Source: Candidatus Micrarchaeota archaeon RBG_16_49_10 (lineage in GTDB: Archaea; Aenigmatarchaeota; Aenigmatarchaeia; CG10238-14). From it: DNA of 64,000 nucleotides. The stretch lies in contig MFRS01000003.1 in the NCBI GenBank assembly GCA_001784635.1, positions 138,763 through 202,762 on the forward strand, written 5' to 3'. Below the pieces are notes generated by a model that was given only the letters and a program-made list of their open reading frames with translations, searched no databases and was not told where the DNA came from. Shown in pieces: positions 4,041-15,591 of this stretch. The translations under genes and the position numbers were made by a program. Numbering within the stretch: position 1 is the first letter of the stretch; each line of letters begins with the position of its first letter.

Positions 4041-4736
4041 CTAGTTAAAACCTTTAAACCTTAGGCTAATCACATAGGGGATCATTCTTAATTCCCTCTT
4101 GATGTTAAACGAGCTTTTCCTTTCGGACCTGACCCACAGTATAGGGAACTCTTTTATCTTATAACCGGCCCTTTTTGCCCTCGCCAAAAATTCCACATCC
4201 CAAAACCATCCTCGTTTGTTGTCAAAACCCATACCACTTATTATAGGGAGCAGCTCCCTTTTGAAAGCCTTGAAGCCGCATTGGTGATCCTTAATTTTAG
4301 TCAGGAAAAGAATACGCATAATTTTGTTGTACACAAAGCTTATTACCAGCCTTTTGGATTCCCTTTTCGCCTTCAGACCACCGTATCTGCTGCCTATCGC
4401 TATGTCGGCCCCGTTTTCCACATTACATATCAATTCTTTTAGGTATCTCAAATCAACGGAAAGGTCGGCGTCCATGAAAGCTATTATATCCCCCTTGGCC
4501 TTCTTGAATGACTGAGCCAGATTTTCTCTTCTAGTAGGCCCATTATTGTAGTTTAATATTTTGATGCCTTCAACTTTTTTGAGCTCGTCAAGAGTCCCGT
4601 CTGTCGAGGCGTCATTTACAACTATTATCTCGAAATTTTTAATGAACTTTCTGGTAGCACCCACAATTTTTTTAATGTTGCCTCGGATTATTTTCTCCTC
4701 ATTGTATACAGGAACGAATATGCTGACCTTGACCAT
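4041..4736 (-). CDS. Family 2 glycosyltransferase, polyprenyl-phosphate sugar synthase type (DPM1/ArnC/GtrB-like)
   Basis: 231 aa. VSIFVPVYNEE, VVNDASTDGT and the DxD motif in FMDADLS are the typical GT-A/GT2 signature. Confidence 0.85.
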   Translation of the reverse strand: MVKVSIFVPVYNEEKIIRGNIKKIVGATRKFIKNFEIIVVNDASTDGTLDELKKVEGIKILNYNNGPTRRENLAQSFKKAKGDIIAFMDADLSVDLRYLKELICNVENGADIAIGSRYGGLKAKRESKRLVISFVYNKIMRILFLTKIKDHQCGFKAFKRELLPIISGMGFDNKRGWFWDVEFLARAKRAGYKIKEFPILWVRSERKSSFNIKRELRMIPYVISLRFKGFN

Positions 4737-4812
4737 TAGATTAGACTTTCGTCTTCAAAGTTTTAAGTTTGAAACTCTCTGGCTTTAAATTTTTATTATA
4801 CACAAGCAGAGA

Positions 4813-5202
4813 TTACAATTTCATAACCACAAAATATGCCCCTGCTGATATCATCAATATACCTAACATTTTCATCAAGGTTAGTTTCTCCCCAAAGAAG
4901 GCCCATGCCGCAACCGCTGTCAGGATATATGCCATCCCTATCAGTGGGTACACGAAACTAACGTCCTCCATCGACAGTGCAGTGAGGTAGAAAACTGATG
5001 TCAAACCGTATAGCGCAAGTCCAACAAAAACGAACTTGTTGAAAAACACTTGGAAAAATTTCTCGAAGAAAATATCCTTTACCTGTATTTTTCCAATTTC
5101 ATTCATACCCCTTTTCATAAAAATCTGGGCGGCCGTCCCCATCAACACCACTATCCCAATAATTAAAAACACATTCATTTTTTTTCCCTCCTTAACTTTC
5201 AT
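4813..5202 (-). CDS. Small 4-TM EamA/SMR-like membrane protein (ArnE/F- or GtrA-like flippase role inferred)
   Basis: 129 aa with four hydrophobic helices. Its start abuts the stop of the upstream oxidoreductase gene (5202/5203). Confidence 0.6.
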   Translation of the reverse strand: MKVKEGKKMNVFLIIGIVVLMGTAAQIFMKRGMNEIGKIQVKDIFFEKFFQVFFNKFVFVGLALYGLTSVFYLTALSMEDVSFVYPLIGMAYILTAVAAWAFFGEKLTLMKMLGILMISAGAYFVVMKL

Positions 5203-6480
5203 TCAATCACACAATTTTGCAAGCTCTTCGCCGGCAATCACCGAGTTTTCAATCGACCTTTCTGGATATCCGTTGAACATACCACCAATGTAGAAGCCTT
5301 TTACCGGTGTCTCATGGCCTATAACCTTTTTTTGGTAATTGGTTTCATAAATTATTCCAGCTTTTTTACTTTTTGAAACTTTCCACCATTTAAGATTCTG
5401 TCTTTTGATATACGGGAAAAGCCTTCTAAGCTCCTTAAAATATTCTTCAAATATCCCCTTATCGGAAAGTTTCCATAGATGAGATCTAAAGTCTGGATAA
5501 CTTGCTAGATATAATATATGGTCTTTGTACTTCTCTATAGACTGGAAGTTGGTGTGTTCTATAATAGCCCCTATTAGAGACTCGTCTATTATGTTTATCC
5601 AATAGAAATCGGTGACTTTCCTATCTAAACCAACAATAATACAGAGAGCTCCCTGGTAATTTATATCAGATATTTTTTTCCTGAACTCTACAGACAAGTC
5701 TTTATATTCGGCAAGTGTAGGAAGGGGGATGGTACTTATAACATTATTGGCATTGATTTCTTTACCATCCAACACAACGCCTTTCATAACCCCATTCCTA
5801 ATTATAAACTTGTTAATACCCTTTCCTTTAACAATATCCCCCCCATTTTCAAGTATTTCCTGTTCGATTTTATCGATGAATATATGAAACCCACCATCTA
5901 TATACCCCAAGGATTCCTTTTTGAACCCACCCGTTGTTCTTATCCTTATCCTCTCTATAAACCATGTCGCCGATACTTTGTCGGCGTTTTTATCGTATTT
6001 GCTTTTAAGCATGGGTGAAAAGAATTTTTCATACACACCTTTACCAGCATTATTTAATATCCATTCTTTAGCGGTCATGTCATCCAATTTTTTAGGATTC
6101 CTTATGAACTTTATTTTTGCCATGACTAAACCTAGTCTTATTTTTTCAGGTACAGTGAGAATTTTGAATCCTATGAAACTGAAAGGGGTTGAGAGGTCAT
6201 GTATTTTTCCTTTTGTGTAAAAACCCAAGGTGCTACCAGTCCAGATAATATTCTCAATTCCTATTTCTTCAGCTAAATTTATGAAAGAGGGGTTGTTTAC
6301 AAAAACATGGTGATAGTATTTTTCTATCGGATCCCCCCTTGTTTTGGTAGACATAAGAAGACCGCCCAACTCATTTGTTTTTTCAACGAGCAAAACTTTT
6401 TTACCCCTTTTGCTTAACCTATACGCGGCTACTAGACCTGCCATACCCGCCCCAAGAATTACACAGTCATACCTGCTCAT
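5203..6480 (-). CDS. FAD/NAD(P)-dependent oxidoreductase (amine oxidase/phytoene desaturase/UDP-galactopyranose-mutase-like fold)
   Basis: 425 aa with an N-terminal Rossmann motif, DCVILGAGMAGLVAAYRLSKRGKKVLLVEK...GG. The exact subfamily is not resolvable by eye. Confidence 0.8.
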   Translation of the reverse strand: MSRYDCVILGAGMAGLVAAYRLSKRGKKVLLVEKTNELGGLLMSTKTRGDPIEKYYHHVFVNNPSFINLAEEIGIENIIWTGSTLGFYTKGKIHDLSTPFSFIGFKILTVPEKIRLGLVMAKIKFIRNPKKLDDMTAKEWILNNAGKGVYEKFFSPMLKSKYDKNADKVSATWFIERIRIRTTGGFKKESLGYIDGGFHIFIDKIEQEILENGGDIVKGKGINKFIIRNGVMKGVVLDGKEINANNVISTIPLPTLAEYKDLSVEFRKKISDINYQGALCIIVGLDRKVTDFYWINIIDESLIGAIIEHTNFQSIEKYKDHILYLASYPDFRSHLWKLSDKGIFEEYFKELRRLFPYIKRQNLKWWKVSKSKKAGIIYETNYQKKVIGHETPVKGFYIGGMFNGYPERSIENSVIAGEELAKLCD

Positions 6481-6592
6481 AAAATAAAACCCCTAAAGTT
6501 ACAGATTCATATATTAGGCTACTAACTATAAATTTTTGGTTTTTAAGGCTAATTTATCTCTTTCTTAGTAATATATTATTGGTGTTTGTTGA

Positions 6593-8134
6593 GTGGATGA
6601 ATTCACTAAAGCCTTGGCGATTTTCTTCGTTTTTTATTTCATACTTTTAATTTCTACGACTCCCGAACCAATAGTCTCTGATGAAGGAGATCATATGATG
6701 GATTCATTCTTCTTCTACAACCTCTTCAGGGATTTTTTTACTAACCCAAAACTAATTTTAAATTTACCAGATTACGTTTATAGATTTTATACTTTCTACC
6801 CGGCTCTTTATATTGTATATTATCCACCACTTTTTGCTTCTCTTACTACCCTGTCTTTCATGGTACTAGGACCTTCAATGCTATCTACAAGGCTAATAAC
6901 AATAATATTCTCTATCGCCTCTCTGGGAGTATTTTATTTGATTGGTAAAAGACTTTACGACAGAAAAACGTCTTTTTTGGCGACCCTCATACTCTCCTTC
7001 GCCCCATTTTATTTCATTTTTTCTAACATAGCAATGCTTGAGGTACCTCTCCTATTTTTTACATTCCTCTCAATACTATTTTTCCTTAAAGGTCTGGAAG
7101 AAAACAAAAACTACTTTTACTTAATGGGCCTTTCTTTAGGGGTTGGGGCATTAATAAAATATTCTATTTTCTCTTTAGGGCCCGGAATCTTTTTTTATCT
7201 TATATATAAAAAGGCATTTTTCAAAAATTTTAAAGAACTTTTTCTTTCCGCCTTAATCGCCCTTCTGATTTTCACCCCCTATGTTCTGATAGTCAATCAT
7301 TTTAATGGCATGGACTATACACTTTGGGTTTTGGGAAGAAAGGCCGATGAATGTTATGATATTTGTCCACCTAAAAGCAGGTTAGCAACTCTGTACTATT
7401 ACCCGTTTTTTTTATTTTTTGAAGTTTTCCCTCTTGTTTTTCTTTTACCAATAGCATACTTTATTTGGCATAGAAAATTAGAGAATTCCGATATTTTCCT
7501 TCTTTTTTTGGTGTTTTTTTACTTTCTTTTCTTCACTATATTGTCTAATAAAACCCCGAAGTACATAATGGTTACCATACCTCTCTTTTCACTCCTTTTT
7601 GTTTCAGCTTTGAAAAGACTCAAAAAAGGAACGGCCGTGTTATTCGTTTCCGTTTTTCTAGCCCAATTCATCATCTCAATTTTCTTTCCGCCTTATAGGG
7701 CTACCGAAACTTCAACAATATTGAGTTTTGACTCCCAAAAACCTGCATCTTATCTTGCAAACAACATAGAGCCACAGGCAAACGTCTTTCTTATAGGGTC
7801 TTTTTATGAAGACGGTTTAATTTTCAACTTCGCTAGCTTAAACAACTTTCAAAATCATGTTTTAAGATGGCGAGATTGCGTTTTTGAAAATATATCTAGT
7901 GAGAAATTTTCAGATTTTATCCATAAAAACAATATTCAATTTGTTGTGACTGATGATATAGCGAAGGAACAGTATAAACAATCTAGAAAATTTTTAGACG
8001 ATAACTTTAAACAAGTTTATAGTGGCGGTAATATGTTAATTTATGAGAATCAAGACTTGCAGATAATGCCTCTTAATGAGATATGTGATTTTGTTTGCAA
8101 AATAAACAAAACTGTTTGTAGAAAAATTGACTAA
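6593..8134 (+). CDS. GT-C fold glycosyltransferase (ArnT/PMT_2-like, lipid-linked sugar donor)
   Basis: 513 aa, GTG start, at least 10 hydrophobic helices followed by a soluble C-terminal domain. The architecture and Tyr/Phe-rich helices are typical of the 4-amino-arabinose/dolichyl-phosphate-mannose transferase family. Confidence 0.7.
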   Translation: MDEFTKALAIFFVFYFILLISTTPEPIVSDEGDHMMDSFFFYNLFRDFFTNPKLILNLPDYVYRFYTFYPALYIVYYPPLFASLTTLSFMVLGPSMLSTRLITIIFSIASLGVFYLIGKRLYDRKTSFLATLILSFAPFYFIFSNIAMLEVPLLFFTFLSILFFLKGLEENKNYFYLMGLSLGVGALIKYSIFSLGPGIFFYLIYKKAFFKNFKELFLSALIALLIFTPYVLIVNHFNGMDYTLWVLGRKADECYDICPPKSRLATLYYYPFFLFFEVFPLVFLLPIAYFIWHRKLENSDIFLLFLVFFYFLFFTILSNKTPKYIMVTIPLFSLLFVSALKRLKKGTAVLFVSVFLAQFIISIFFPPYRATETSTILSFDSQKPASYLANNIEPQANVFLIGSFYEDGLIFNFASLNNFQNHVLRWRDCVFENISSEKFSDFIHKNNIQFVVTDDIAKEQYKQSRKFLDDNFKQVYSGGNMLIYENQDLQIMPLNEICDFVCKINKTVCRKID

Positions 8135-8141
8135 AGTTGGA

Positions 8142-8215
8142 TGGGACGGACCGGATTTGAACCAGCAACACCACGGGCTTCAGCCGTGTGCTCTCCCGGG
8201 TTGAGCTACCGTCCC
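8142..8215 (-). tRNA. tRNA-Phe (anticodon GAA)
   Basis: Reverse complement folds as a cloverleaf: gggacgg ta gctc aacccggg agagc a cacgg ctGAAgc ccgtg gtgtt gctgg ttcaaat ccggt ccgtccc a. 74 nt, CCA not encoded. Confidence 0.9.
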
Positions 8216-8243
8216 TCGCAGTAATAATTCAACGAATAATTCT

Positions 8244-8960
8244 TTAAACTTTCCTATTAAAAATCCTTTTTACGATGTCGGACTTGTACTTCCAGACGAA
8301 CTCCGTATATGACCTTGCCATCCTCACGAGGTTCGTCTTTTTTCCTGTATTATAGCTTACACTCACCGGTATGACCGCAACCGAGAATCCCTTCATCGAG
8401 GCAATCCTAAGGCTGTCGGCCTCTATCCCATAACCCTCTATTCTCAGCTCTGGCAGCATACCTTCAACCACCTTTCGAGTGTAGCACCTGAAGCCCGAGC
8501 TTAGGTCAGAATAGAATGAACCTGAAACTAATACCATAAGCAGGTTGACGAATATGTTGAGGAGGACCCGCATCAAAGGGATTTTACCTCTTTCTTTGGT
8601 GAACCTGGAGCCTACAACTATGTCTGAAATCCTGTTTTCGGCCAACAGGAGGAGGTTAGGTATCTCCTCTGGGTCGCTCTGCCCATCAGCATCTATCGTG
8701 ACCGCATTTTTTCCGCCTTCATCTAGGAACCTCTTGAAGCCGGTCATCAGAGCTCTCCCTTTGCCCATGTTCTTCTTGTGCGAGAGGATTATAACCCTCT
8801 TTTCTCCCTTAAAGCCGCTTTGCATAAGGTTTAGAGTCCTGTCTGTCGAGCCATCGTTGACAAAAATAATTTTATCAACGTACTTCAATGTCTTCCTTGT
8901 CACGTCCACCGCTGTCTTCTCTTCGTTGTAGGCGCATATTATCGCGAAATTGTCCATCAA
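8244..8960 (-). CDS. Family 2 glycosyltransferase (second DPM1/GtrB-like copy)
   Basis: 238 aa. AIICAYNEE, VNDGSTDRT and TIDADGQ (DxD) motifs. Confidence 0.85.
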   Translation of the reverse strand: MMDNFAIICAYNEEKTAVDVTRKTLKYVDKIIFVNDGSTDRTLNLMQSGFKGEKRVIILSHKKNMGKGRALMTGFKRFLDEGGKNAVTIDADGQSDPEEIPNLLLLAENRISDIVVGSRFTKERGKIPLMRVLLNIFVNLLMVLVSGSFYSDLSSGFRCYTRKVVEGMLPELRIEGYGIEADSLRIASMKGFSVAVIPVSVSYNTGKKTNLVRMARSYTEFVWKYKSDIVKRIFNRKV

Positions 8961-9108
8961 TTATAAATTGAGGGAAAGATTATTAAACTCTATTTTTCCT
9001 AGTATACCGTTTCTTCCGTGAAAAGTTAAGAATTCTGCCGGAAAAATTATAAAAGGGTGCGATAAAGAATATAAAGATACAAACAAGTGATTTAAAGAGG
9101 CTGATTGG

Positions 9109-9348
9109 TTGAAGGAGTTTTTGGATGCGCTCAAGCTGAAAAGCAAGGACAAGCTGGAGAGAGCCGAAGGGTTTTCAATCCTTTCCCTCCTTCTAGGCTC
9201 GCTTCTCCTGTCACTTGGGATAGGTTTAAGTATTTTAATCCCGAAAGGCATTTCTGCCATTACGGCCATGTTTGGAAGCCTAATAGCCTTCCTTTCGACG
9301 GTGGCCCTGGTGGCGATATGGTTCATAAAGGAGTTAAAGGGTGAATAG
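9109..9348 (+). CDS. Small two-helix membrane protein
   Basis: 79 aa with two hydrophobic helices. Its stop codon directly abuts the S15 start (TAG ATG). Confidence 0.4.
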   Translation: MKEFLDALKLKSKDKLERAEGFSILSLLLGSLLLSLGIGLSILIPKGISAITAMFGSLIAFLSTVALVAIWFIKELKGE

Positions 9349-9810
9349 ATGGCAAGAATCCATGCCAGGAGAAAGGGGAGGTCAAGCTCCACAAGGCCCA
9401 TAGGGCGCGGCTCGCCTAGGTGGGTCAGGTACAAGAAGTCAGAGATAGAGGAGCTTGTCATGAAATATGCCAAGGAGGGGAAATCATCCTCGGAAATCGG
9501 GATGATATTGAGGGACCAGTACGGCATACCCCTAGTTAAAAGGGCCTCTGGCAGGAAAATATCCCAAATAATGAGGGAAAAGGATATGTACCCCAAATAC
9601 CCAGAGGACCTGTTCAACCTTTTCGTGAAGGCCGTCAACCTCATGGACCACCTTGAAAAAAGGAAGAAGGATTACACCTCAAAAAGGGGCCTCGAGCTCC
9701 TGGAGTCAAAGATAAGGAGGCTTGGGAAATATTACACCAAATCCGGGAAACTGCCCGAGAGCTGGAAATACGAGCCTGAAAAGATAAAACTATTGATCCA
9801 ACAGAAGTGA
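9349..9810 (+). CDS. rps15: 30S ribosomal protein S15 (uS15, archaeal S15P/S13e type)
   Basis: 153 aa. The MARIHARRKGRSSSTRP N-terminus and remaining sequence are typical of archaeal S15. Confidence 0.95.
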   Translation: MARIHARRKGRSSSTRPIGRGSPRWVRYKKSEIEELVMKYAKEGKSSSEIGMILRDQYGIPLVKRASGRKISQIMREKDMYPKYPEDLFNLFVKAVNLMDHLEKRKKDYTSKRGLELLESKIRRLGKYYTKSGKLPESWKYEPEKIKLLIQQK

Positions 9811-9814
9811 TTTC

Positions 9815-10369
9815 ATGGTGAAGAAACTCAAAGGGAAGACTTGGTACAATCTGGTTGCACCCAAGATGTTCGACTCAAAGGTTTTGGGGAAAACCCCTGC
9901 GGGGGATTCTGACACCATTATAGGGAGAACGGTCGAAGTCTCCATAATAAACCTCCTCAACAACCCCTCAAAGTACTACCTGAAGTTCAAGTTCAAGGGC
10001 GTGAAGATTGAGGAGACCAAGGTCATAACCGAATTCGCTGGCCTGGTATGCCTTAGGGACTACATATCCAGGATGGTGAGGCACGGCGTCAGGAGGATTG
10101 ACACTGTGCAGGACCTTACGACAGAGGACAAGAAGAAGGTGAGAGTGAAGACCTTGACCCTCATAAGCAAGAGAGCAAGGAAGGAGGTTGAGGTCACGAT
10201 GCGGAAGTTCATAAAAGATGGCATCAAGGAAAGAGTCGAGTCGATGAAGCTAGACGACTTCCTTTCCAAGCTATTGGACGACTCGCTGAAAAGGGAATTA
10301 TTAACAAAGGGGAACAAGATATACCCTATAAGGGCCTTTGAAGTCATAAAAATAGAGAGACTAGACTGA
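9815..10369 (+). CDS. rps3ae: 30S ribosomal protein S3Ae (eS1)
   Basis: 184 aa. KGKTWYNLVAPKMF and the following pattern are typical of S3Ae. Confidence 0.9.
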   Translation: MVKKLKGKTWYNLVAPKMFDSKVLGKTPAGDSDTIIGRTVEVSIINLLNNPSKYYLKFKFKGVKIEETKVITEFAGLVCLRDYISRMVRHGVRRIDTVQDLTTEDKKKVRVKTLTLISKRARKEVEVTMRKFIKDGIKERVESMKLDDFLSKLLDDSLKRELLTKGNKIYPIRAFEVIKIERLD

Positions 10370-11528
10370 TTATCTTCCCCATTCCTATTATATTCAGTAT
10401 CAGCACGGCGAACGTGAATATCGAGAGCCCGACGATTACCTTGTTTGCCACATCCTTTCTGAACACTTTCTCAAGCAGCGCCTGGTAAATCAACCCCCCG
10501 TCCAATGGCAGAAGAGGCAATAGGTTTGCTATCGCTATGTTTATGTCAAGGAAGGCCGCCCAGTTGAAGAGGTTGAAGAACCAGAAGAATATCCGGGCCC
10601 CAGTTTCTGGGTTTCCGAGGGACCTAAAACTATCCCTGTAAATAAGCTTAGTGCTCACGTCGCTTACCCCTATGAAGGACTGCCCCTCCAGGTCAGGGTT
10701 CTCCACGGTTTTAACTGTGAACAGGCCTTCTGTCGTCCTAATATCAATCTCCGTCCCGGGGGCCGCCGAAGCCAAAATTTCCGAAAGGTCATCCACACTC
10801 CTAACCTCCTGTCCCTGTATCTCGGTTATAATGCCCCTCAAACCCACAGCTTCGGCAGGCATCCCGGCTATCGTCTGGGAAAAGACGACGCCGTTTGCAA
10901 CGAAAATCTTTGGCACAATCACGCTCATGCCAAAAATGACACCTAACAGCAGCAGGAAAACCAGGAAATTCGCAAAGCTGCCCACAGCCGCAACCTTCAT
11001 CCTGGTCGATGGCCTACTCTTCCTGAACTGGTCCTCATCGGGCTCGACAAAAGCACCAGGGAAAATCAGGAACAGGATAAGCCCCAGGGACTTTATCCTT
11101 ATCTTTTCGGCGGCCGCAACGAAGCCGTGGCTCAGCTCGTGTGGGACGATTATTATGAAGATCGTTATTATCCAGTACCACAATGGGATGAAGGCGACGT
11201 GCTTCTGGACGCCCTCGCTCGGCTCCCCGGGGAATATCTTAGGGAGCAGGAACTTCACGCCTGGCTCGCCTAGAGTCAGGTTCTTCAGGAGGAAGCCCAT
11301 CCCGACCAAAGAGGCTATTATCGCCACGATGATGGCGATGGACGCATAGACTTTGAAGGCTTTCGCGTGCCTCAAGCCTATCTCCCTTATCTTGTTCTTC
11401 CCCTTCTTCGTCCTCCTGGTTATCATGAAGAACTTGAACTCTATGTTCTTCCTGTCCATTATCACCAAAACGCCCAAGACCGTCAAAAAAAGAACTATCG
11501 ACAGGCTTTCAAAGTTCATCAAAACCAC
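10344..11528 (-). CDS. Site-2 protease family (M50) membrane metalloprotease with PDZ domain
   Basis: 394 aa. HELSHG zinc motif (VPHELSHGFVAA), a PDZ-like segment (GIITEIQGQEVRSVDDL) and the C-terminal LPLLPLDGG motif. Confidence 0.85.
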   Translation of the reverse strand: MVLMNFESLSIVLFLTVLGVLVIMDRKNIEFKFFMITRRTKKGKNKIREIGLRHAKAFKVYASIAIIVAIIASLVGMGFLLKNLTLGEPGVKFLLPKIFPGEPSEGVQKHVAFIPLWYWIITIFIIIVPHELSHGFVAAAEKIRIKSLGLILFLIFPGAFVEPDEDQFRKSRPSTRMKVAAVGSFANFLVFLLLLGVIFGMSVIVPKIFVANGVVFSQTIAGMPAEAVGLRGIITEIQGQEVRSVDDLSEILASAAPGTEIDIRTTEGLFTVKTVENPDLEGQSFIGVSDVSTKLIYRDSFRSLGNPETGARIFFWFFNLFNWAAFLDINIAIANLLPLLPLDGGLIYQALLEKVFRKDVANKVIVGLSIFTFAVLILNIIGMGKIISLVSLFL

Positions 11529-11562
11529 AACTTAGTATTCTTTTGATTGGGAGAATATAAAT

Positions 11563-11994
11563 TTAGCCCAAAACTATAAGTATGGCGCCGCCCACCACGA
11601 GCAAGGCCCCCAGCGCAATCTTCAATGTGACCTTCTCTCCCAGGAAGAGGGCTGCGAGGATTATGACGAAGACCACGCTCAACCTGTCGATTGGTGCTAC
11701 CTTCGATGCCTGGCCGAGCTTCAATGCGATGAAGTAGAAGAGCCATGACAGTGCGCCAGCAACCCCGCTTAGGAGGATGTAGAAAAGTGCTTTCCGGTTG
11801 GAGAATATCTCCGGCACGTTGTGCAATTTTCCTGTCACTGCGATGGCTGCGAAAAGGAATAGGAACATAACCCCCGCCCTTACCATTGTGGCAGCGTTAG
11901 AGTCAACTCCCTGGAGACCTATCTTCCCAAATATGGCTACCAGAGAGGCCGTCAAAGCAGAGAGCAGCGCGAATATTAGCCACGAAACTTCCAT
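11563..11994 (-). CDS. Half-size EamA/DMT family transporter
   Basis: 143 aa with 4-5 TM helices and a typical EamA repeat pattern (APIDRLSVVFVIILAALFLGEK). Confidence 0.7.
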   Translation of the reverse strand: MEVSWLIFALLSALTASLVAIFGKIGLQGVDSNAATMVRAGVMFLFLFAAIAVTGKLHNVPEIFSNRKALFYILLSGVAGALSWLFYFIALKLGQASKVAPIDRLSVVFVIILAALFLGEKVTLKIALGALLVVGGAILIVLG

Positions 11995-12036
11995 GAAGAT
12001 TATTCTGTTCCCAGGTAAAAATATCTGACTTTAGCG

Positions 12037-12048
12037 ATGCAGGGGGAG
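12037..12048. repeat. Distal copy of the tRNA-Leu 3' end (att-like direct repeat, 12 nt)
   Basis: ATGCAGGGGGAG is identical to 13822-13833. The following bases (tgcgtttcaa) weakly resemble the tRNA T-arm (agatttgaa). Confidence 0.6.
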
Positions 12049-12058
12049 TGCGTTTCAA

Positions 12059-12136
12059 TTGTATTCAGGTTTTTCATGAATGTTAAACTGGGTTCATGTG
12101 CCTATTTAGGCTACACTAAAGTTGTATTCAAGTTTT
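12059..12136 (+). promoter_or_regulatory. Two 15-nt direct repeats upstream of the toxin-antitoxin operon (candidate operator) followed by a TATA-like box
   Basis: TTGTATTCAGGTTTT (12059-12073) and TTGTATTCAAGTTTT (12122-12136) match at 14 of 15 positions. The second lies just upstream of aagataaatatataag (about 12140-12156). Confidence 0.35.
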
Positions 12137-12186
12137 GAGGAAGATAAATATATAAGTATACTATGGTAATACTTTTAGGTGATTAT

Positions 12187-12381
12187 ATGGAAACTATCCC
12201 AGCAAAAGTCACTGAAAAATTGGTATTAGAGATGGACGAATTGATAAAAGAAGGTTGGTATGCCAACAGGTCCGAATTAATCAGAGATGCCATTAGGGAA
12301 ATGGTTAAAAGAGTCAAGATAGAGATGCTAGAGCAGGCTATAAGGGAAGATGTGGAATGGGGTCTGCATGGGAAAAATTGA
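12187..12381 (+). CDS. Ribbon-helix-helix (CopG-like) antitoxin
   Basis: METIPAKVTEKLVLEMDELIKEGWYANRSELIRDAIREMV is a typical RHH pattern. The ORF track starts at 12163, but that ATG lies too close to the TATA-like box, so I prefer the ATG at 12187. Confidence 0.7.
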   Translation: METIPAKVTEKLVLEMDELIKEGWYANRSELIRDAIREMVKRVKIEMLEQAIREDVEWGLHGKN

Positions 12382-12877
12382 GACAGCAATATCGAATTCT
12401 GGCCCATTAATTCATTTGTCGCAAATAGAGTCTTTTGGGCTTCTAGGTATAATAAAAAACATTTATATCACAAAAGAAGTTTTTGATGAAGTCTGCTCTT
12501 TCAGCTTGCCTGGAAGCAAGGAAGTGAAAAAATCCAGCAATATAAAAGTTAAAGACTTGAACTATAAGGCTAAGGATTTATCCAGGCTAATTTCTGACAA
12601 ATATTCGTTAGACTTGGGCGAGGCCACATCAATATCACTCGCAAAGCAGGAGAAAATAAACCTCTTCCTTACGGATGACCTTTCTGCTAAAGTTGTCGCC
12701 AAAGAGTTTGGTTTGCAAGTTCATGGGTCAATCGGTATAATTTTGAGAGCCTTCAGAGTTGGCGTTCTAAAAAAACAGGACGTGATAAGGTCAGTCCAAA
12801 ATTTGCACAAAAAATCCAGCATGTTTATAACGGCAGACCTAATCAGCTATGTGATTAAACAGATAGAAAAGGCCTAA
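12368..12877 (+). CDS. PIN-like nuclease toxin, DUF3368/COG2405 type
   Basis: SNSGPLIHLSQIESFGLLG...ITKEVFDEV...LDLGEATSISLAKQE...FLTDDLSAKVVAKEFGLQVHGSIGIILRA matches the DUF3368 pattern. The ATG at 12368 overlaps the antitoxin stop by 14 nt. Confidence 0.7.
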   Translation: MGKIETAISNSGPLIHLSQIESFGLLGIIKNIYITKEVFDEVCSFSLPGSKEVKKSSNIKVKDLNYKAKDLSRLISDKYSLDLGEATSISLAKQEKINLFLTDDLSAKVVAKEFGLQVHGSIGIILRAFRVGVLKKQDVIRSVQNLHKKSSMFITADLISYVIKQIEKA

Positions 12878-12884
12878 AAATCTC

Positions 12885-12897
12885 TATGCAGGGGGAG
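12885..12897. repeat. Middle copy of the tRNA-Leu 3' end (att-like direct repeat, 13 nt)
   Basis: TATGCAGGGGGAG is identical to 13821-13833. Confidence 0.65.
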
Positions 12898-12902
12898 CGC
12901 AG

Positions 12903-12924
12903 ACTCGTTATAAGAGGGAGCACA
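12903..12924. repeat. Left 22-bp terminal inverted repeat of the second cassette
   Basis: The reverse complement of actcgttataagagggagcaca is tgtgctccctcttataacgagt. This matches 13800-13821 (tgtgctccctgataaaacgagt) at 19 of 22 positions. Confidence 0.55.
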
Positions 12925-12985
12925 CTCAAGACGAAAGAGAAATAACTTTTGAAGTAGGAAAGAGTTTCTATAAATAATTCACATA

Positions 12986-13729
12986 CTATACTATTTCAAA
13001 TTCTTTCTCTAGAAACTTGATTTCATATTGATTTTCCCAAGGTCTAAAATCAGGTTCTTCTTCTGGACATTCTGTCCTATATTCAAATCTAAACTTGTAT
13101 CTCCCCGAATCTACTAAATGGTTCATATAACATGTATAGGTATCACCATTTGAACAATCGACAGTATCATAGACAATTTCTCTTTGGTCCCAGTGGAAGA
13201 ATTCCTGTGAATCTGAGATTTCACATATTGGAGTTGGAAATCCTGCTATGCAACCAATTGGACCATTTTCACAAATATCATTACATAAACCAACGCACCC
13301 TGGTTTTAAAAGTAATTTTTCCCAATTACCATTTTCATATCTGAAAACACTCCAAGAACCAGCACTATTTAGATAGATATTTTCATCTGTTCTTACAATA
13401 GCACTTATTTCTTCAAATTTGGCAAATTTGGTTTCCATTTCTATTTTCAATTCATTTTTTTCTTCTGTATCGCATATCGAATTATAATTATTATCGAGGC
13501 AACAAGAACTTCCAACTAATATATACGGTTTATTACACACTACTTTTCCTGATTTGAGCTCTCGAATTCTTAATTCTAACTGGCCATTTTCGTTTTGTAA
13601 ATTTTTAATTTCAGATAACAATCCCTCGTTGCTCTTTTGATTTTGGTTGATTACATAAAATAATCCTATTATAGCCAATAAAGAGACCATTCCAAATATA
13701 ATTAAGAGAGTATTATTAGATTTTTTCAT
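12986..13729 (-). CDS. Membrane-anchored coiled-coil protein with Cys-rich ectodomain (sole cargo of cassette 2)
   Basis: 247 aa. N-terminal TM (LLIIFGMVSLLAIIGLFYVI), a heptad-like LSEIKNLQNENGQLELRIRELK, then a CNKPYILVGSSCCLDNNYNSIC module and further Cys pairs. Confidence 0.6.
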   Translation of the reverse strand: MKKSNNTLLIIFGMVSLLAIIGLFYVINQNQKSNEGLLSEIKNLQNENGQLELRIRELKSGKVVCNKPYILVGSSCCLDNNYNSICDTEEKNELKIEMETKFAKFEEISAIVRTDENIYLNSAGSWSVFRYENGNWEKLLLKPGCVGLCNDICENGPIGCIAGFPTPICEISDSQEFFHWDQREIVYDTVDCSNGDTYTCYMNHLVDSGRYKFRFEYRTECPEEEPDFRPWENQYEIKFLEKEFEIV

Positions 13730-13799
13730 ATGTTGAAATATAGGATTACATATTTAAAATGGATTGAACTCTCTAAAAACGTACTTATATTTAAGTGTC

Positions 13800-13821
13800 T
13801 GTGCTCCCTGATAAAACGAGT
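13800..13821. repeat. Right 22-bp terminal inverted repeat of the second cassette
   Basis: See 12903-12924. This copy abuts the direct repeat and the tRNA 3' end. Confidence 0.55.
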
Positions 13822-13833
13822 ATGCAGGGGGAG
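13821..13833. repeat. Proximal copy of the direct repeat, overlapping the 3' acceptor/T-stem of tRNA-Leu
   Basis: TATGCAGGGGGAG. Bases 13823-13833 are the discriminator plus the last 10 nt of the tRNA. Confidence 0.65.
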
Positions 13834-13906
13834 AGATTTGAACTCTCGAACCCACTAAGGGACAGGCTTCTAAGGCCTGCGCCGTTGGCCGCTTGGCTAC
13901 CCCTGC
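13823..13906 (-). tRNA. tRNA-Leu (anticodon UAG)
   Basis: gcagggg ta gccaagcggccaacggc g caggc ctTAGaa gcctg tcccttagtgggttc gagag ttcaaat ctctc cccctgc a. The long variable arm fits Leu. 84 nt. Confidence 0.9.
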
Positions 13907-13947
13907 TTCAAAAATAATTATAAGGCGTAGGATTTAAACTAATAAAA

Positions 13948-14133
13948 ATGGGATGCGTAACATTTTACATGAAGGTGCAGTGCAGCAGATGCGCTAAGGG
14001 TGTCAGCAAGGCCGTTTACGAGCATTCAAAGGCCAAGTACGGCAAGCCGCTGTGTTTCGATTGCCAGACCATCCTGAATTCAGGCAAGACTTTCAAGGAG
14101 AGGTTCAGGATAGTGGACACTATTGTTGATTAG
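13948..14133 (+). CDS. Small 4-Cys zinc-ribbon protein
   Basis: 61 aa with CSRC...CFDC. It sits on the opposite strand between tRNA-Leu and tRNA-Glu and is more GC-rich than its surroundings. Confidence 0.45.
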   Translation: MGCVTFYMKVQCSRCAKGVSKAVYEHSKAKYGKPLCFDCQTILNSGKTFKERFRIVDTIVD

Positions 14134-14135
14134 GA

Positions 14136-14232
14136 TGCTCCCGACGGGATTTGAACCCGTGTCTATGGCTCGAAAGGCCACTATCCTATCGGTTTTAAAC
14201 TATGTTAAATGACCGGGCTAGACTACGGGAGC
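14136..14232 (-). tRNA. tRNA-Glu (anticodon UUC) with a ~23-nt insertion in the D-loop (candidate non-canonical intron)
   Basis: gctcccg ta gtct agcccggtc [atttaacatagtttaaaaccgat] a ggat a gtggc cTTCga-type loop (ctttcga) gccat agac acggg ttcaaat cccgt cgggagc a. 97 nt. The cloverleaf only closes if 14188-14210 is removed or looped out. Confidence 0.7.
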
Positions 14233-14853
14233 TTTCATAAAACTTTCATATCTTTTTATATGTTTTATGTTTTTAAATCCCACTACTTTTTTGAATTTTT
14301 TTACCATCGCTCTATCGTAGATATATATTTGCGGAGTTTCGCTTCCAAAAGTCCACTTAGTGGTTCTGATACCTAAAACTTTCATACAACCTGAGAAGTC
14401 GACCATCAGTTTTGGCATTTTAGTCTTTAGAGAAATACAGGGATGGTCCCTTTTAGGTAAACAATAGACTGACCCATCAGTGTCAATAAGGCCTCTTAAA
14501 AACGCTTCCATGAAATCTGTGTTTTTGGAAACCCAATCAGGTATCCCTAGGTTATTATTAATTTTATTACCTCTTTTTAGACCGAAGTTTTCTAGTAAAA
14601 ATACCAAACTCCTATTTTGGTTCAATAGCGCTATACCATTGAAATTTTTGTATCTTTTAATATGAAAACTGAAACCGAGGGTTTGTTCAAACAATGGTTT
14701 AACATAATTAACTAAATACTCATAATCATCACTCAAATGCCCAGAAACAGTAGTTTGATAGACTTTTCGTCTTTTATCCACATATATACAACCATCCCCT
14801 GTCATAATGCCAAAAATTTCTGCCAAATTTCGCGTTTTTTCTATCATTTCCAT
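14218..14853 (-). CDS. Free-standing double-motif LAGLIDADG homing endonuclease
   Basis: 211 aa. Motif 1 is LAEIFGIMTGDGCIY and motif 2 is AFLRGLIDTDGSVY. The last four codons and the stop (gct ccc gta gtc tag) are nucleotides 1-15 of tRNA-Glu. Confidence 0.8.
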   Translation of the reverse strand: MEMIEKTRNLAEIFGIMTGDGCIYVDKRRKVYQTTVSGHLSDDYEYLVNYVKPLFEQTLGFSFHIKRYKNFNGIALLNQNRSLVFLLENFGLKRGNKINNNLGIPDWVSKNTDFMEAFLRGLIDTDGSVYCLPKRDHPCISLKTKMPKLMVDFSGCMKVLGIRTTKWTFGSETPQIYIYDRAMVKKFKKVVGFKNIKHIKRYESFMKAPVV

Positions 14854-14910
14854 GTTTCATGATTAAAAAATAATCATAATTATCTTTGGCGACAGGGTAG
14901 GGTTTGGATA

Positions 14911-14920
14911 AAAAAAAAAA
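14911..14920 (-). terminator. Oligo-T (T10) tract immediately after the tRNA-Val 3' end
   Basis: A10 on the plus strand at 14911-14920 is T10 on the transcribed strand, directly following the discriminator base. Oligo-T is the canonical archaeal termination signal. Confidence 0.5.
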
Positions 14921-15017
14921 TGGGCCGAGCAGGACTCGAACCTGCGATTTGCGGTTGCCAAAACAGGCAAATTCCGCCACGTCAAGGCGGCGTCTTAACC
15001 AACTGGACCATCGGCCC
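14921..15017 (-). tRNA. tRNA-Val (anticodon GAC) with a ~23-nt insertion in the variable-loop region (candidate non-canonical intron)
   Basis: gggccga tg gtcc agttggttaa gac g ccgcc ttGACgt ggcgg [aatttgcctgttttggcaaccgcaaatc] gcagg ttcgagt cctgc tcggccc a. 28 nt lie where 4-5 are expected, and the insert can self-pair (tttgc/gcaaa or ttgcc/ggcaa). 97 nt. Confidence 0.7.
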
Positions 15018-15063
15018 CCAATACAATTATACTTCGGCCATTAAATTTTAATCGTTTTTCCAG

Positions 15064-15591
15064 CTAACCTTTGAATCCAACCACTTTGAGCTGCGGGTAG
15101 GCGACCCTTTTATACACCAATCCCATGAGCTTTGAGATTACCCTCACCACAAAAAATGGGTTCTTCTCATCCAGAAAAAGGTATTCAGCACCTATCCTTT
15201 CCATCTTCAAACTCCTTAGGTGGTTTTCGAGATGCCAGGGCGTGTAAAGCGCGTAATGCCTGTCCTCTTCCCCGTAGCTGATTCTCTCATACCTGCCGAA
15301 ATGGGCTCCGGAAAATGGTGTGTGCCACCCCCAGAAGCTCGCGTTGTCCGTTATTAAAATCAGCTTACCGCCTTTCTTGAGGACTCTGATCATCTCTTCC
15401 AGAGCCTTGTTCGGGTTTTTCAGGTGCTCAAAAAGGTTTTCAGAGTACACCTCGTCGAAAAACCTATCAGGAAAAGGCAATTTCCCCCTTTCCACATCGC
15501 ACTTGATTACGCCCTTCCTCTGCGGATAGAGGTCGATGAAATGCGTCCCAAACGTCTGGTGGGCGCACCCCACGTTCAATATTTTTTCCAT
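15064..15591 (-). CDS. Class I SAM-dependent methyltransferase (Methyltransf_11-like)
   Basis: 175 aa. LNVGCA..., FFDEVYSENLFEHL and VLKKGGKLILI are typical post-I/II/III motifs. It is wedged between tRNA-Ser and tRNA-Val. Confidence 0.65.
   Translation of the reverse strand: MEKILNVGCAHQTFGTHFIDLYPQRKGVIKCDVERGKLPFPDRFFDEVYSENLFEHLKNPNKALEEMIRVLKKGGKLILITDNASFWGWHTPFSGAHFGRYERISYGEEDRHYALYTPWHLENHLRSLKMERIGAEYLFLDEKNPFFVVRVISKLMGLVYKRVAYPQLKVVGFKG

What the first reader, a model, noticed from the sequence alone, without database searches (positions are those of the whole stretch)
12037..13906. tRNA-Leu 3' end copied three times, delimiting two ~0.9-kb single-module cassettes with no recombinase
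The 12-13 nt (T)ATGCAGGGGGAG, which is the discriminator plus the last 10 nt of tRNA-Leu(UAG) and 2 trailer nt, occurs perfectly at 12037, 12885 and 13821. All copies are in direct orientation, and all lie downstream of the tRNA 3' end, where integrative elements sit. The copies cut the AT-rich interval into two units. Unit 1 (about 0.85 kb) holds only an RHH/PIN (DUF3368) toxin-antitoxin pair with its own repeated operator-like sites. Unit 2 (about 0.94 kb) holds only a membrane-anchored coiled-coil Cys-rich protein, and is additionally framed by 22-bp inverted repeats (12903-12924 versus 13800-13821, 19 of 22 matches). The inverted-repeat arms themselves resemble degenerate copies of the tRNA acceptor end (agggagcaca versus agggggagcgca), so each junction can fold as an imperfect hairpin with the tRNA-derived core. 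No integrase, transposase or IntI-like gene is in the 64 kb. One module per unit, a recombination-site-like imperfect palindrome at each boundary, and a toxin-antitoxin cassette together recall integron gene cassettes, but here the array is anchored on a tRNA 3' end. It could be a pair of decayed integrated elements. It could also be an undescribed cassette-capture system mobilised in trans.
Basis: partly seen in the sequence, partly recalled or inferred. Interest (0 to 1): 0.78.

Follow-up and report, generated by a model that had tools for sequence, protein, structure and literature searches.

The report
Integrase-less inserts stacked at tRNA-Leu
Two small pieces of foreign DNA, a toxin-antitoxin pair and a surface-protein gene, were inserted one after the other into the end of a tRNA-Leu gene of a Micrarchaeota archaeon and carry no recombinase of their own; this is a familiar kind of captured mobile DNA, although similar stripped-down, repeat-bounded toxin-antitoxin units recur across DPANN archaea.

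Summary
ATGCAGGGGGAG (last 11 nt of tRNA-Leu(UAG) plus 1 trailer nt) occurs exactly three times in 64 kb, where 0.01 is expected. All copies are in direct orientation downstream of the tRNA and bound two low-GC units of 837 and 924 nt. Unit 1 holds an RHH/PIN-DUF3368 pair. Unit 2 holds one Cys-rich membrane protein framed by 22-26-nt inverted repeats. No recombinase is detectable in the window.

The integron analogy fails. The junctions do not fold, there is no IntI or attC, and the TA pair carries a conserved upstream promoter-like block. The best reading is two successive site-specific integrations at the tRNA-Leu attB that left integrase-less, att-flanked units like bacterial CIMEs.

Support comes from a scan of related genomes. 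At least 14 Micrarchaeota loci carry extra copies of the same tRNA-Leu core bounding 0.1-5 kb units. Two tyrosine-integrase families sit at this site. Several of the small units, some of them TA-only, retain integrase fragments. A distant syntenic relative lacks both units.

One result keeps a trans-mobilised cassette reading alive at about 0.25. The closest RHH-DUF3368 pairs elsewhere are also bounded by direct repeats about 0.85 kb apart at other targets (4 of 6 loci against 2.7% of controls). Call it a new member of a known kind, of moderate interest.

The parts
13823..13906 (-). tRNA-Leu(UAG) gene, with no encoded CCA. Its 3' end is the attachment site.
   Evidence: ARAGORN; Rfam tRNA, 57.5 bits
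13822..13833 (-). Repeat copy 3 (tRNA-proximal att copy). It comprises the last 11 nt of the tRNA plus 1 trailer nt.
12886..12897 (-). Repeat copy 2, the junction between unit 2 and unit 1. It is 13 nt if T12885 is counted.
12037..12048 (-). Repeat copy 1, the distal att copy. By inference it is the displaced original tRNA end, followed by the native trailer and the EamA promoter region (12000-12036).
   Evidence: reading the flank as native is inference
12049..12885 (.). Unit 1 (837 nt, GC 0.368): an integrase-less insert holding one toxin-antitoxin module.
12059..12136 (+). Two 15-nt direct repeats, TTGTATTCAGGTTTT (12059-12073) and TTGTATTCAAGTTTT (12122-12136), in the non-conserved spacer next to the distal att copy. 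They could be recombinase arm-type sites or operator sites; their function was not tested.
   Evidence: family D14
12151..12186 (+). Promoter/operator block (TATAAGTATACTATGGTAATAC...) conserved upstream of homologous RHH-DUF3368 pairs in six other DPANN contigs.
12187..12381 (+). Ribbon-helix-helix antitoxin gene (64 aa).
   Evidence: Pfam RHH_8 at 3e-07 and RHH_1 at 4.6e-06, both above cut-off
12368..12877 (+). PIN/DUF3368 toxin-like gene (169 aa). Its stop codon lies 8 nt from repeat copy 2.
   Evidence: Pfam DUF3368 and PIN, both below the curated cut-offs; 196 homologues, and the best 120 listed carry a precomputed PF11848 assignment
12898..13821 (.). Unit 2 (924 nt, GC 0.312): an integrase-less insert holding one gene.
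12899..12924 (+). Distal inverted-repeat arm of unit 2.
13800..13825 (-). Proximal inverted-repeat arm of unit 2; its last 4 nt overlap repeat copy 3. If the unit is joined into a circle, the two arms flank a 9-nt spacer, AGGGGGAGC.
12986..13729 (-). 247-aa protein with an N-terminal membrane anchor, a coiled-coil stretch and a Cys-rich domain. Function unknown. Only three other relatives (four database hits counting the protein itself) were found among 5.8 billion proteins.
11563..11994 (-). EamA-family transporter gene, the native flank on the far side of the inserts (GC 0.528).
   Evidence: Pfam EamA at 1.2e-23

Best explanation
The three repeats are attachment-site (att) copies left by two successive site-specific integrations into the 3' end of tRNA-Leu(UAG).

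Proposed sequence of events. A circular element carrying an attP with the 12-nt core CTCCCCCTGCAT recombined with the identical core at the tRNA end. This regenerated the tRNA and displaced the old core to the far side, giving unit 1. A second element then did the same at the regenerated tRNA end, giving unit 2. Unit 2 is probably the younger, being tRNA-proximal and having the lowest GC.

Enzyme. It was most likely a tyrosine recombinase of the kind found at the same 11-nt core in other Micrarchaeota.

Present state. Neither unit now encodes a recombinase. They are stripped-down, att-flanked leftovers, the archaeal counterpart of bacterial CIMEs or 'captured' elements. They most likely arose by internal deletion from small integrase-bearing elements. 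The toxin-antitoxin pair would be retained because losing it is harmful. Any excision today would need an integrase supplied in trans.

Unit 2. Its inverted repeats are read as the two recombinase-binding half-sites that flank the crossover region in its attP.

Shown versus inferred. Shown: the repeats, the unit boundaries and contents, the foreign base composition, the lack of a recombinase in the window, and the existence of integrase-bearing and integrase-fragment-bearing units at the same core in relatives. Inferred: the order of insertion, the class of enzyme for these two particular units, and their origin by deletion.
For: (1) The 12-mer occurs three times exactly where 0.01 is expected. 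All copies are in direct orientation within 1.8 kb downstream of the tRNA and coincide with the edges of a low-GC block.

(2) A distant syntenic relative (L124) has tRNA-Leu, then a membrane-protein gene, then M50 protease, S3Ae and S15. It has neither unit and no extra core copy.

(3) A scan of species-representative genomes with the tRNA-Leu 3' 20-mer returned 118 loci, nearly all Micrarchaeota. At least 14 of them hold one or two extra non-tRNA copies of CTCCCCCTGCA in direct orientation downstream of a tRNA-Leu, bounding units of 0.1-5.2 kb.

(4) Two tyrosine-recombinase families (Pfam PF00589) sit next to tRNA-Leu in these loci. Type B is about 310 aa. Type C is about 400 aa with a zinc ribbon.

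(5) Small units keep integrase footprints. L013 keeps the first 162 residues of a type C integrase. L035 keeps only the first 147 nt of the element. L073 keeps about 20 N-terminal and 95 C-terminal integrase residues. Type C derivatives have an exact repeat of only 11 nt, the same core as here.

(6) Cargo of the small units is mostly toxin-antitoxin pairs: ParE, HEPN/nucleotidyltransferase, DUF4258/DUF2283 and AbiEii/AbiEi.

(7) The circular junction of unit 2 is a 26-9-26 palindrome (-20.2 kcal/mol, z = -5.86), the layout of simple tyrosine-recombinase sites.

(8) The literature reports archaeal att sites of 8-14 bp at tRNA 3' ends, tandem integration, and loss of the integrase gene after integration (PMC8371274). 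CIMEs are defined as elements that lost their integration genes but kept attL and attR (PMC5704250).
Against: No integrase fragment is detectable in either window unit, so origin by deletion is argued by analogy only.

No parent element with the unit 2 inverted repeat or the unit 1 ends was found in the viral, plasmid or phage collections or among the fetched loci.

The PIN stop codon lies 8 nt from the tRNA-proximal core. That is the position where the integrase sits in the two Micrarchaeota families, so any parent must have had a different layout.

The closest RHH-DUF3368 pairs are bounded by direct repeats about 0.85 kb apart at three other targets. This uniformity is easier to explain if the pair moves as a unit.

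Only 64 kb of a 232-kb contig was visible.
Confidence: 0.6

Rival explanations
1. The units are functional non-autonomous cassettes rather than wreckage. Each would be a gene module of about 0.85-0.95 kb plus a short non-coding stretch carrying its own attP. It would excise as a small circle and re-insert at a matching core, using an integrase encoded elsewhere in the cell. That would be an archaeal, tRNA-anchored analogue of integron cassettes, CIMEs or satellites.
For: RHH-DUF3368 pairs 60-68% identical to unit 1 are bounded by direct repeats with nearly the same spacing at unrelated targets. L127 has a 90-nt repeat with spacing 872. L129 has a 44-nt repeat with a 12-nt exact core and spacing 854. 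L130 has a 39-nt repeat in three copies, delimiting an RHH-PIN unit (823 nt), a HEPN/nucleotidyltransferase unit (1287 nt) and a second RHH-PIN copy.

Four of six evaluable loci have a flanking exact repeat of 12 nt or more, against 2.7% of random controls.

Polarity is the same in the window, L127 and L129: the PIN stop is next to the intact target copy.

Both cores and the inverted repeats of unit 2 are intact. One module per unit is also seen in L024 and L046. Two contigs from other samples are 100% identical over unit 2 and the 3' part of unit 1 (12583-13922). The adjacent host genes of one of those samples differ by 0.7%.
Against: No circular form, empty site in a close relative, or second copy of either unit was seen. 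Contigs from the two other samples that carry these genes show the same arrangement.

The repeats differ in sequence and length (12 to 90 nt) between loci. One trans-acting enzyme cannot serve them all.

The non-coding spacers next to the repeats are not conserved.

Selection against loss of the antitoxin would drive independent deletions to the same TA-only end state.

In the two Micrarchaeota integrase families the small units demonstrably carry integrase remnants.
Confidence: 0.25
2. Unit 2 is a transposon-type passenger cassette (a MIC, MITE-like or casposon-derived element). On this reading its inverted repeats are transposon ends and the flanking repeat is a target-site duplication made by a transposase or casposase acting in trans. 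Unit 1 would have a separate origin.
For: Terminal inverted repeats of 22-26 nt lie next to a short direct repeat. Casposons are known to insert in tandem with inverted repeats and target duplications (PMC6563490). From my own knowledge, not tested here, some casposons target tRNA 3' ends. Read differently, the element could span 12898-13825 with an 8-bp duplication, AGGGGGAG.
Against: The repeat does not abut both arms symmetrically: there are 0 nt on one side and 5 nt on the other. The 8-bp reading needs the last 4-5 nt of the element to match the target by chance.

Unit 1 has the same 12-nt repeat and no inverted repeats.

The same 11-nt core bounds tyrosine-integrase derivatives in other genomes.

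No transposase, Cas1 or PolB is present in the window. No other copy of the inverted repeat exists in the window or in viral contigs.
Confidence: 0.07
3. The repeats are chance matches or local duplications, and the intervening genes are ordinary resident genes.
For: The Cys-rich protein has a 49%-identical homologue in a contig (L003) that has no tRNA and none of the 11-nt core CTCCCCCTGCA (the core search is). Two RHH-DUF3368 loci (L125, L126) lack flanking repeats. Other low-GC stretches exist in the window.
Against: Three exact copies occur where 0.01 is expected, with the orientation and position expected of att sites. The pattern recurs in at least 14 other genomes. The units are absent from the syntenic relative L124.
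Confidence: 0.02

Closest known systems
CIMEs (cis-mobilizable elements) and tandem accretion at tRNA genes in bacteria
   Same: Both are elements that have lost their integration genes but keep attL and attR. Both are stacked in tandem at the 3' end of a tRNA gene because newcomers integrate into an att site of the resident (definition in PMC5704250). The window shows att copies, no recombinase and two units in tandem.
   Different: The host is an archaeon (Micrarchaeota, DPANN). The units are far smaller (0.84 and 0.92 kb, one module each). No decayed integrase or transfer genes remain inside. Cis-mobilisation by an incoming element is untested.
Archaeal integrated elements with integrase loss ('gene capture') and tandem integration
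   Same: The shared features are integration at a tRNA 3' end, direct repeats equal to the tRNA end, tandem arrays, and loss of the integrase after integration. All are described for archaea (PMC8371274; PMC6563490).
   Different: Described cases are multi-gene proviruses or plasmids, mostly in Sulfolobales, Thermococcales, Methanococcales, haloarchaea and Thaumarchaeota. My literature searches found nothing specific for Micrarchaeota.
SNJ2-type integration (very short att at the acceptor end of a tRNA)
   Same: The review describes an att of 13-14 nt, without a stem-loop, at the amino-acid-attachment end of a tRNA (PMC8371274). Here the identity is 12-13 nt over the acceptor 3' strand, the discriminator and the trailer.
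   Different: No SNJ2-like integrase or virus genes are present. Any relationship between the Micrarchaeota type C integrases and IntSNJ2 was not tested.
Integron gene cassettes
   Same: Both are small single-module units in a head-to-tail array, with toxin-antitoxin modules among them and the newest unit probably next to the primary site.
   Different: There is no IntI, attI or Pc. The junctions do not fold as attC sites. The boundaries are a 12-nt tRNA-derived core, not GTTRRRY. The TA unit carries a conserved upstream block read as its own promoter. The palindrome of unit 2 exists only in the hypothetical excised circle.
Casposons and transposase-less passenger cassettes (MICs/MITEs)
   Same: Unit 2 has terminal inverted repeats plus a short flanking direct repeat and lies in a tandem arrangement at a tRNA end.
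   Different: No Cas1 or PolB or transposase is present. The repeat is not symmetric with respect to the arms. Only a single copy exists. Unit 1 lacks inverted repeats.

Membership tests
Integrase-less att-flanked integrated element (CIME-like / captured element) | Direct repeats identical to the 3' end of the target gene at both ends of the insert, with the target gene left intact | tested here: met
   There are three exact 12-nt copies, the proximal one inside an intact tRNA-Leu.
Integrase-less att-flanked integrated element (CIME-like / captured element) | The insert is foreign to the site (absent in relatives, deviant composition) | tested here: met
   GC is 0.37 and 0.31 against 0.50-0.53 in the flanks. 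The syntenic relative L124 lacks both units. That relative is distant; no close relative with an empty site was available.
Integrase-less att-flanked integrated element (CIME-like / captured element) | No integration or transfer genes within the element | tested here: met
   The units hold only RHH plus PIN, and one Cys-rich ORF. No recombinase is detectable anywhere in the 64 kb.
Integrase-less att-flanked integrated element (CIME-like / captured element) | Derivation from an integrase-bearing element (remnants, or a recognisable parent) | tested here: inconclusive
   No integrase footprint and no parent element were found for the window units. Clear footprints exist in analogous units at the same core in L013, L035, L073, L072 and L024.
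Integrase-less att-flanked integrated element (CIME-like / captured element) | Excision or mobilisation when a cognate integrase is supplied | not testable with these tools
   This needs read-level data or experiments.
Integron (cassette array) | IntI-type tyrosine recombinase with an adjacent attI and Pc | tested here: not met
   No PF00589 hit in any window ORF of 200 aa or more. The local integrase HMM found nothing.
Integron (cassette array) | An attC site at each cassette boundary: an imperfect palindrome that folds as single-stranded DNA, with a conserved 7-nt core | tested here: not met
   The junctions fold no better than shuffles (z = 0.40, 0.85, -1.11). The boundary core is ATGCAGGGGGAG.
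Integron (cassette array) | Mostly promoterless cassettes | tested here: inconclusive
   Unit 1 has a conserved upstream promoter/operator block, but TA cassettes in integrons also have their own promoters. Unit 2 has 92 nt upstream of its ATG. No expression data exist.
Casposon | Cas1 (casposase), usually with a family B DNA polymerase | tested here: not met
   No such domains in the window ORFs.
Casposon | Terminal inverted repeats directly flanked by a target-site duplication | tested here: inconclusive
   Unit 2 has inverted repeats and a 12-nt repeat, but they are offset by 0 nt on one side and 5 nt on the other. Unit 1 has none.
IS-derived passenger cassette (MIC/MITE) | Several copies with the same ends, at varied targets, with a constant-length duplication | tested here: not met
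   Only the two arms of unit 2 match in the window, and none match in viral contigs. The rest of the genome was not visible.
SSV-type ('suicidal') integrase element | The integrase gene is split by integration, leaving Int(N) and Int(C) parts at the two ends | tested here: not met
   No integrase-like coding sequence at either end of either unit.
Type II toxin-antitoxin (VapBC-like RHH + PIN/DUF3368) | An adjacent, overlapping small DNA-binding antitoxin gene and a PIN-type toxin gene with a conserved upstream control region | tested here: met
   The RHH domains are above cut-off. PIN and DUF3368 are below the curated cut-offs but consistent with 196 homologues (the best 120 listed carry a precomputed PF11848 assignment). 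The genes overlap by 14 nt, and the upstream block is conserved. Toxicity and neutralisation were not tested.

The most novel reading that the evidence does not exclude
The units of about 0.85-0.95 kb are bona fide non-autonomous integrative cassettes. Each would be one gene module plus a short attP-bearing non-coding stretch that circularises and re-inserts using tyrosine integrases of co-resident small elements. Arrays of such cassettes at tRNA-Leu and other att sites would then be a DPANN-wide, integron-like way of trading toxin-antitoxin and surface-protein genes. This would also give a concrete mechanism for how two-gene toxin-antitoxin modules move between genomes.
Probability: 0.22. Interest if true: 0.75.

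Novelty: new member of a known kind. Interest (0 to 1): 0.42.

Why it matters
For this locus alone the result is ordinary: tandem, integrase-less insertions at a tRNA gene, the normal debris of site-specific integration.

Three things make it worth a note.

First, it documents this process in Micrarchaeota, a group of DPANN archaea with tiny genomes. My literature searches found no description of such integrated elements there.

Second, the scan shows that the 3' end of tRNA-Leu is a lineage-wide hot spot. It is used by at least two families of very small (3.3-5.2 kb) tyrosine-integrase elements, and their most persistent cargo is toxin-antitoxin pairs.

Third, one toxin-antitoxin family (RHH-DUF3368) recurs as a repeat-bounded unit of about 0.85 kb at four unrelated targets. 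This is either a clean example of addiction-driven reduction to a minimal remnant, or the first hint of a mobilisable toxin-antitoxin cassette in archaea. Read mapping and a recombination assay could tell these two apart.

Tried and rejected
Searches that found nothing or no variation:

- Identical or near-identical copies of the units in other contexts. Exact-protein look-ups returned only the same arrangement in two other samples (L001, L002, L128).
- Unit 2 inverted repeat and the tRNA 3' 21-mer in viral contigs: no hits.
- Both units against plasmid and phage collections: no match.
- RHH-DUF3368 profile in viral contigs: no relatives.
- Homology of the window units to any of the 118 Micrarchaeota loci, by DNA or protein: none beyond the tRNA.
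- Integrase footprints in the non-coding ends of the units: none. Only the conserved TA promoter block matched.
- EamA and the 61-aa Zn-ribbon protein as handles for alternative contexts: not on record.

Readings considered and rejected:

- SSV-type split integrase for the window units: rejected, because there are no Int fragments. In the type B family the ORF merely begins inside the tRNA-matching att region and stays whole after integration.
- attC-like folding of the chromosomal junctions: rejected.
- Resemblance between the arm motif AGGGAGCACA and the core plus flank AGGGGGAGCGCA: it needs a 2-nt gap, and with only 3 pattern matches in the window (0.32 expected, two of them the arms themselves) it is inconclusive.
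- The 39-nt repeat of L130 and the other flanking repeats as known RNAs: no Rfam match.
- L032, first counted as a repeat-bounded unit: set aside, because both copies belong to tRNA-Leu genes.


Full report
OBSERVATION

The window comes from Candidatus Micrarchaeota archaeon RBG_16_49_10, the name a source gives for the identical protein P0001 on a 231,994-bp contig.

ATGCAGGGGGAG occurs exactly at 12037, 12886 and 13822, all on the + strand. There is no other copy even with one mismatch. Shuffles give 0.01 exact matches on average, and none of 100 reached three.

tRNA-Leu(tag) lies at 13823-13906 on the minus strand. In the tRNA sense the repeat reads CTCCCCCTGCAT: three T-stem bases, the seven acceptor bases, the discriminator and one trailer base. 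Both extra copies lie downstream of the tRNA.

The 22-nt inverted repeat is confirmed at 19 of 22. It extends to 26 nt at 85% (12899-12924 / 13800-13825) and has no other match in the window.

Unit 1 (12049-12885) holds an RHH gene and a PIN/DUF3368 gene. Unit 2 (12898-13821) holds one 247-aa membrane-anchored Cys-rich protein with no Pfam match.

GC is 0.368 for unit 1 and 0.312 for unit 2, against 0.454 for the window and 0.50-0.53 for the flanking EamA and M50 genes.

No recombinase, transposase or Cas1 domain was found in 40 ORFs of 200 aa or more. tblastn and an HMM built from the integrases described below also found nothing.

One descriptive claim fails. The chromosomal junctions do not fold better than shuffled sequence (z = 0.40, 0.85, -1.11).

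IS THE INTERVAL AN INSERTION?

The one metagenome scan, using the tRNA's 3' 37-mer, returned a distant syntenic contig, L124. There the tRNA-Leu is followed by a 260-aa membrane-protein gene, then the M50 protease, S3Ae and S15, as in the window. It has no toxin-antitoxin pair, no Cys-rich gene and no second core copy. Together with the composition, this marks 12049-13821 as added DNA.

Contigs from the two other samples that carry these genes (L001, L002, L128) show the same arrangement. I therefore saw no presence/absence polymorphism within the species.

THE SAME SITE IN OTHER GENOMES

The one genome scan, using the 3' 20-mer of the tRNA, gave 118 loci, nearly all Micrarchaeota. I listed every copy of the 11-nt core with its flanks.

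Many apparent orphan copies are simply intron-bearing tRNA-Leu genes. However, at least 14 loci carry one or two extra non-tRNA copies in direct orientation downstream of a tRNA-Leu. These bound units of 0.1 to 5.2 kb.

Two element families stand out.

- Type B has a conserved integrase end next to the tRNA and a conserved far end of about 190 nt that includes about 35 nt of tRNA sequence. Complete members are 3.3-5.2 kb.
- Type C shares only 11 nt with the tRNA, the same core as in the window. It has subterminal inverted motifs.

Both encode tyrosine recombinases (PF00589). Type B is about 310 aa, and type C about 400 aa with a zinc ribbon.

Small units in both families are deletion derivatives:

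- L013 keeps the first 162 integrase residues.
- L035 keeps only the first 147 nt of the element, with a different toxin-antitoxin pair behind it.
- L073 keeps about 20 N-terminal and 95 C-terminal residues.
- L072 and L024 keep only the first codons.

Their cargo is mostly toxin-antitoxin pairs: ParE, HEPN/nucleotidyltransferase, DUF4258/DUF2283 and AbiEii/AbiEi. Other cargo includes a DndB-like gene; by ORF inspection only, some units also appear to carry metal-resistance-type genes.

So integration at this exact core by tyrosine recombinases, tandem stacking, and reduction to integrase-less units of 0.7-1.7 kb are common in the phylum.

WHAT THE WINDOW UNITS ARE

By the same logic, unit 1 and unit 2 are two independent insertions at the tRNA-Leu attB. 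Each is bounded by the 12-nt core, and each now lacks a recombinase.

Neither unit resembles type B or type C. No parent element was found.

If unit 2 is joined into a circle, its ends form a 26-nt / 9-nt / 26-nt palindrome with AGGGGGAGC in the centre (-20.2 kcal/mol, z = -5.86). This is the layout of simple tyrosine-recombinase sites: two inverted binding sites around an overlap region. That last point is established knowledge, summarised in PMC8371274.

Among 20 units compared, only unit 2 and a 123-nt empty unit in L046 have such strongly palindromic junctions. Unit 1 has none; it has two 15-nt direct repeats beside its distal core.

A transposon reading of unit 2 is possible but strained. 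The repeat touches one arm and is 5 nt from the other. The alternative 8-bp duplication requires a chance match of the element's last bases to the target. Unit 1 shares the same repeat without inverted repeats.

A RESULT THAT CUTS THE OTHER WAY

The PIN/DUF3368 protein has 196 homologues, those with source names all in DPANN archaea. For the closest ones I could fetch six contexts.

In all of them the DNA homology to unit 1 runs only from about 35 nt upstream of the RHH start to the PIN stop. In three of them this module is again bounded by direct repeats, each with a different sequence:

- L127 has a 90-nt repeat, which is the duplicated 3' end of a membrane-protein gene, with spacing 872.
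- L129 has a 44-nt imperfect repeat with a 12-nt exact core that contains the start codon of the next gene, with spacing 854.
- L130 has a 39-nt repeat present three times. It delimits an RHH-PIN unit (823 nt), a HEPN/nucleotidyltransferase unit (1287 nt) and a second RHH-PIN copy.

With the window (spacing 849), that makes four of six loci. Only 2.7% of random 700-nt segments in the same sequences have a flanking exact repeat of 12 nt or more.

An exact core inside longer imperfect similarity is the signature of attP x attB recombination, not of a fixed-length target duplication. Two explanations fit.

- Deletions in a small integrated element can remove everything except the att sites and the toxin-antitoxin pair, because losing the antitoxin is harmful. 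Independent events would then converge on the same minimal remnant.
- Alternatively, the pair with its short non-coding stretch is itself mobilised in trans.

The first is favoured by the integrase footprints in the Micrarchaeota units, by the lack of conservation of the spacers, and by the different att sequences. The second is favoured by the uniform size and polarity. I cannot separate them with the data available.

MECHANISM, WITH STATUS OF EACH STEP

1. attB is the last 11-12 nt of tRNA-Leu(UAG). This is shown by the repeats.
2. A circular element with a matching core recombined with attB, regenerating the tRNA and displacing the old core. This is inferred from the standard mechanism.
3. 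The enzyme was a tyrosine recombinase. This is inferred from relatives that use the same core.
4. A second element integrated at the regenerated tRNA end. The order is inferred from position and GC.
5. The recombinase genes were lost or were never carried. This is unresolved; I favour loss.
6. The units are now fixed unless an integrase acts in trans. This is untested.

COMPARISON WITH KNOWN SYSTEMS

The closest concept is the bacterial CIME: an element that lost its integration genes but kept attL and attR, and is stacked by accretion at a tRNA gene (PMC5704250).

Archaeal reviews already describe short att sites (8-14 bp), tandem integration and integrase loss (PMC8371274; PMC6563490).

The locus is not an integron. 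It is also not a casposon, an SSV-type split-integrase element or a multi-copy IS-derived cassette. A defining feature was tested and not met in each case (see the membership table).

VERDICT

It is a new member of a known kind: integrase-less, att-flanked insertions in tandem at a tRNA gene, here in a DPANN archaeon.

Interest is moderate. The locus itself is ordinary. The lineage-wide tRNA-Leu hot spot and the recurrent repeat-bounded toxin-antitoxin unit deserve a systematic survey.

LIMITS

- Only 64 kb of the genome was visible.
- The syntenic comparator is distant.
- L130 may be a tandem array or a mis-assembled circle.

Noticed in passing
window 13948-15591: The tRNA cluster next to the finding is expanded by three extra ORFs: a LAGLIDADG homing-endonuclease-like ORF (14218-14853, minus strand, GC 0.33) between two intron-bearing tRNAs, a methyltransferase (15064-15591) and a 61-aa Zn-ribbon ORF (13948-14133). 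Relatives L122 and L123 have the same tRNAs packed together without these ORFs.
   Followed up: partly
window 4500-8960; L128 1-83: A same-species contig from another sample (L128) is 99.5% identical to window 8881-12533 but unrelated upstream of 8881. The low-GC glycosyltransferase block therefore appears strain-variable. All 19 mismatches fall in 8887-11684 and none in 11685-12533. L001 and L002 are 100% identical over 12583-13922.
   Followed up: partly
L021 769-6016; L027 1067-4381; L056 4229-7920; L083 1488-5765; L062 1624-3647; L086 1819-3201: Two families of very small (3.3-5.2 kb) tyrosine-integrase elements are integrated at tRNA-Leu genes (UAG, CAG, CAA isoacceptors) across Micrarchaeota. 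Their ends are conserved and their cargo varies.
   Followed up: partly
L060 215-3313: A type C integrase is joined in one 1032-aa ORF to a TraG/HerA-type P-loop ATPase. This is either a true fusion or a sequencing frameshift.
   Followed up: no
L127 1434-2395; L129 174-1071; L130 81-2229: RHH-DUF3368 toxin-antitoxin pairs are bounded by direct repeats of 90, 44 and 39 nt at non-tRNA targets, about 0.82-0.87 kb apart. L130 has three repeat copies that delimit two different TA modules plus a second RHH-PIN copy, and 74-284 repeats at 2184-2394 at 98%.
   Followed up: partly
L046 1148-1270; L086 1830-1889; L065 3801-3860; L062 (minus strand) about 3589-3647: Tiny 'empty' units of 58-123 nt lie between two copies of the tRNA-Leu core. 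The one in L046 has palindromic ends (junction z = -3.2). They may be solo att remnants.
   Followed up: no
L125 7569-8177: A 13-nt direct repeat, GCAAGAATTCCCC, flanks an IS200-type Y1 transposase gene with 596-nt spacing, inside an island of several PIN toxin-antitoxin pairs.
   Followed up: no
window 12986-13729; P0002-P0004: The Cys-rich protein belongs to a very rare family: four database hits counting the protein itself, i.e. three other relatives. Members share only an N-terminal motif, VCNKPYILVG..CCLD.N.N..CD, after a signal or lipobox sequence, followed by unrelated C-terminal domains. One member carries an Ltp-type surface-lipoprotein domain, PF07553.
   Followed up: partly
L008, L010, L017, L019, L030, L036 and many other loci: Many Micrarchaeota tRNA-Leu(UAA) genes carry an insertion in the 5' half. 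ARAGORN therefore misses them or calls them with the wrong identity, which inflates apparent 'orphan' tRNA ends.
   Followed up: no
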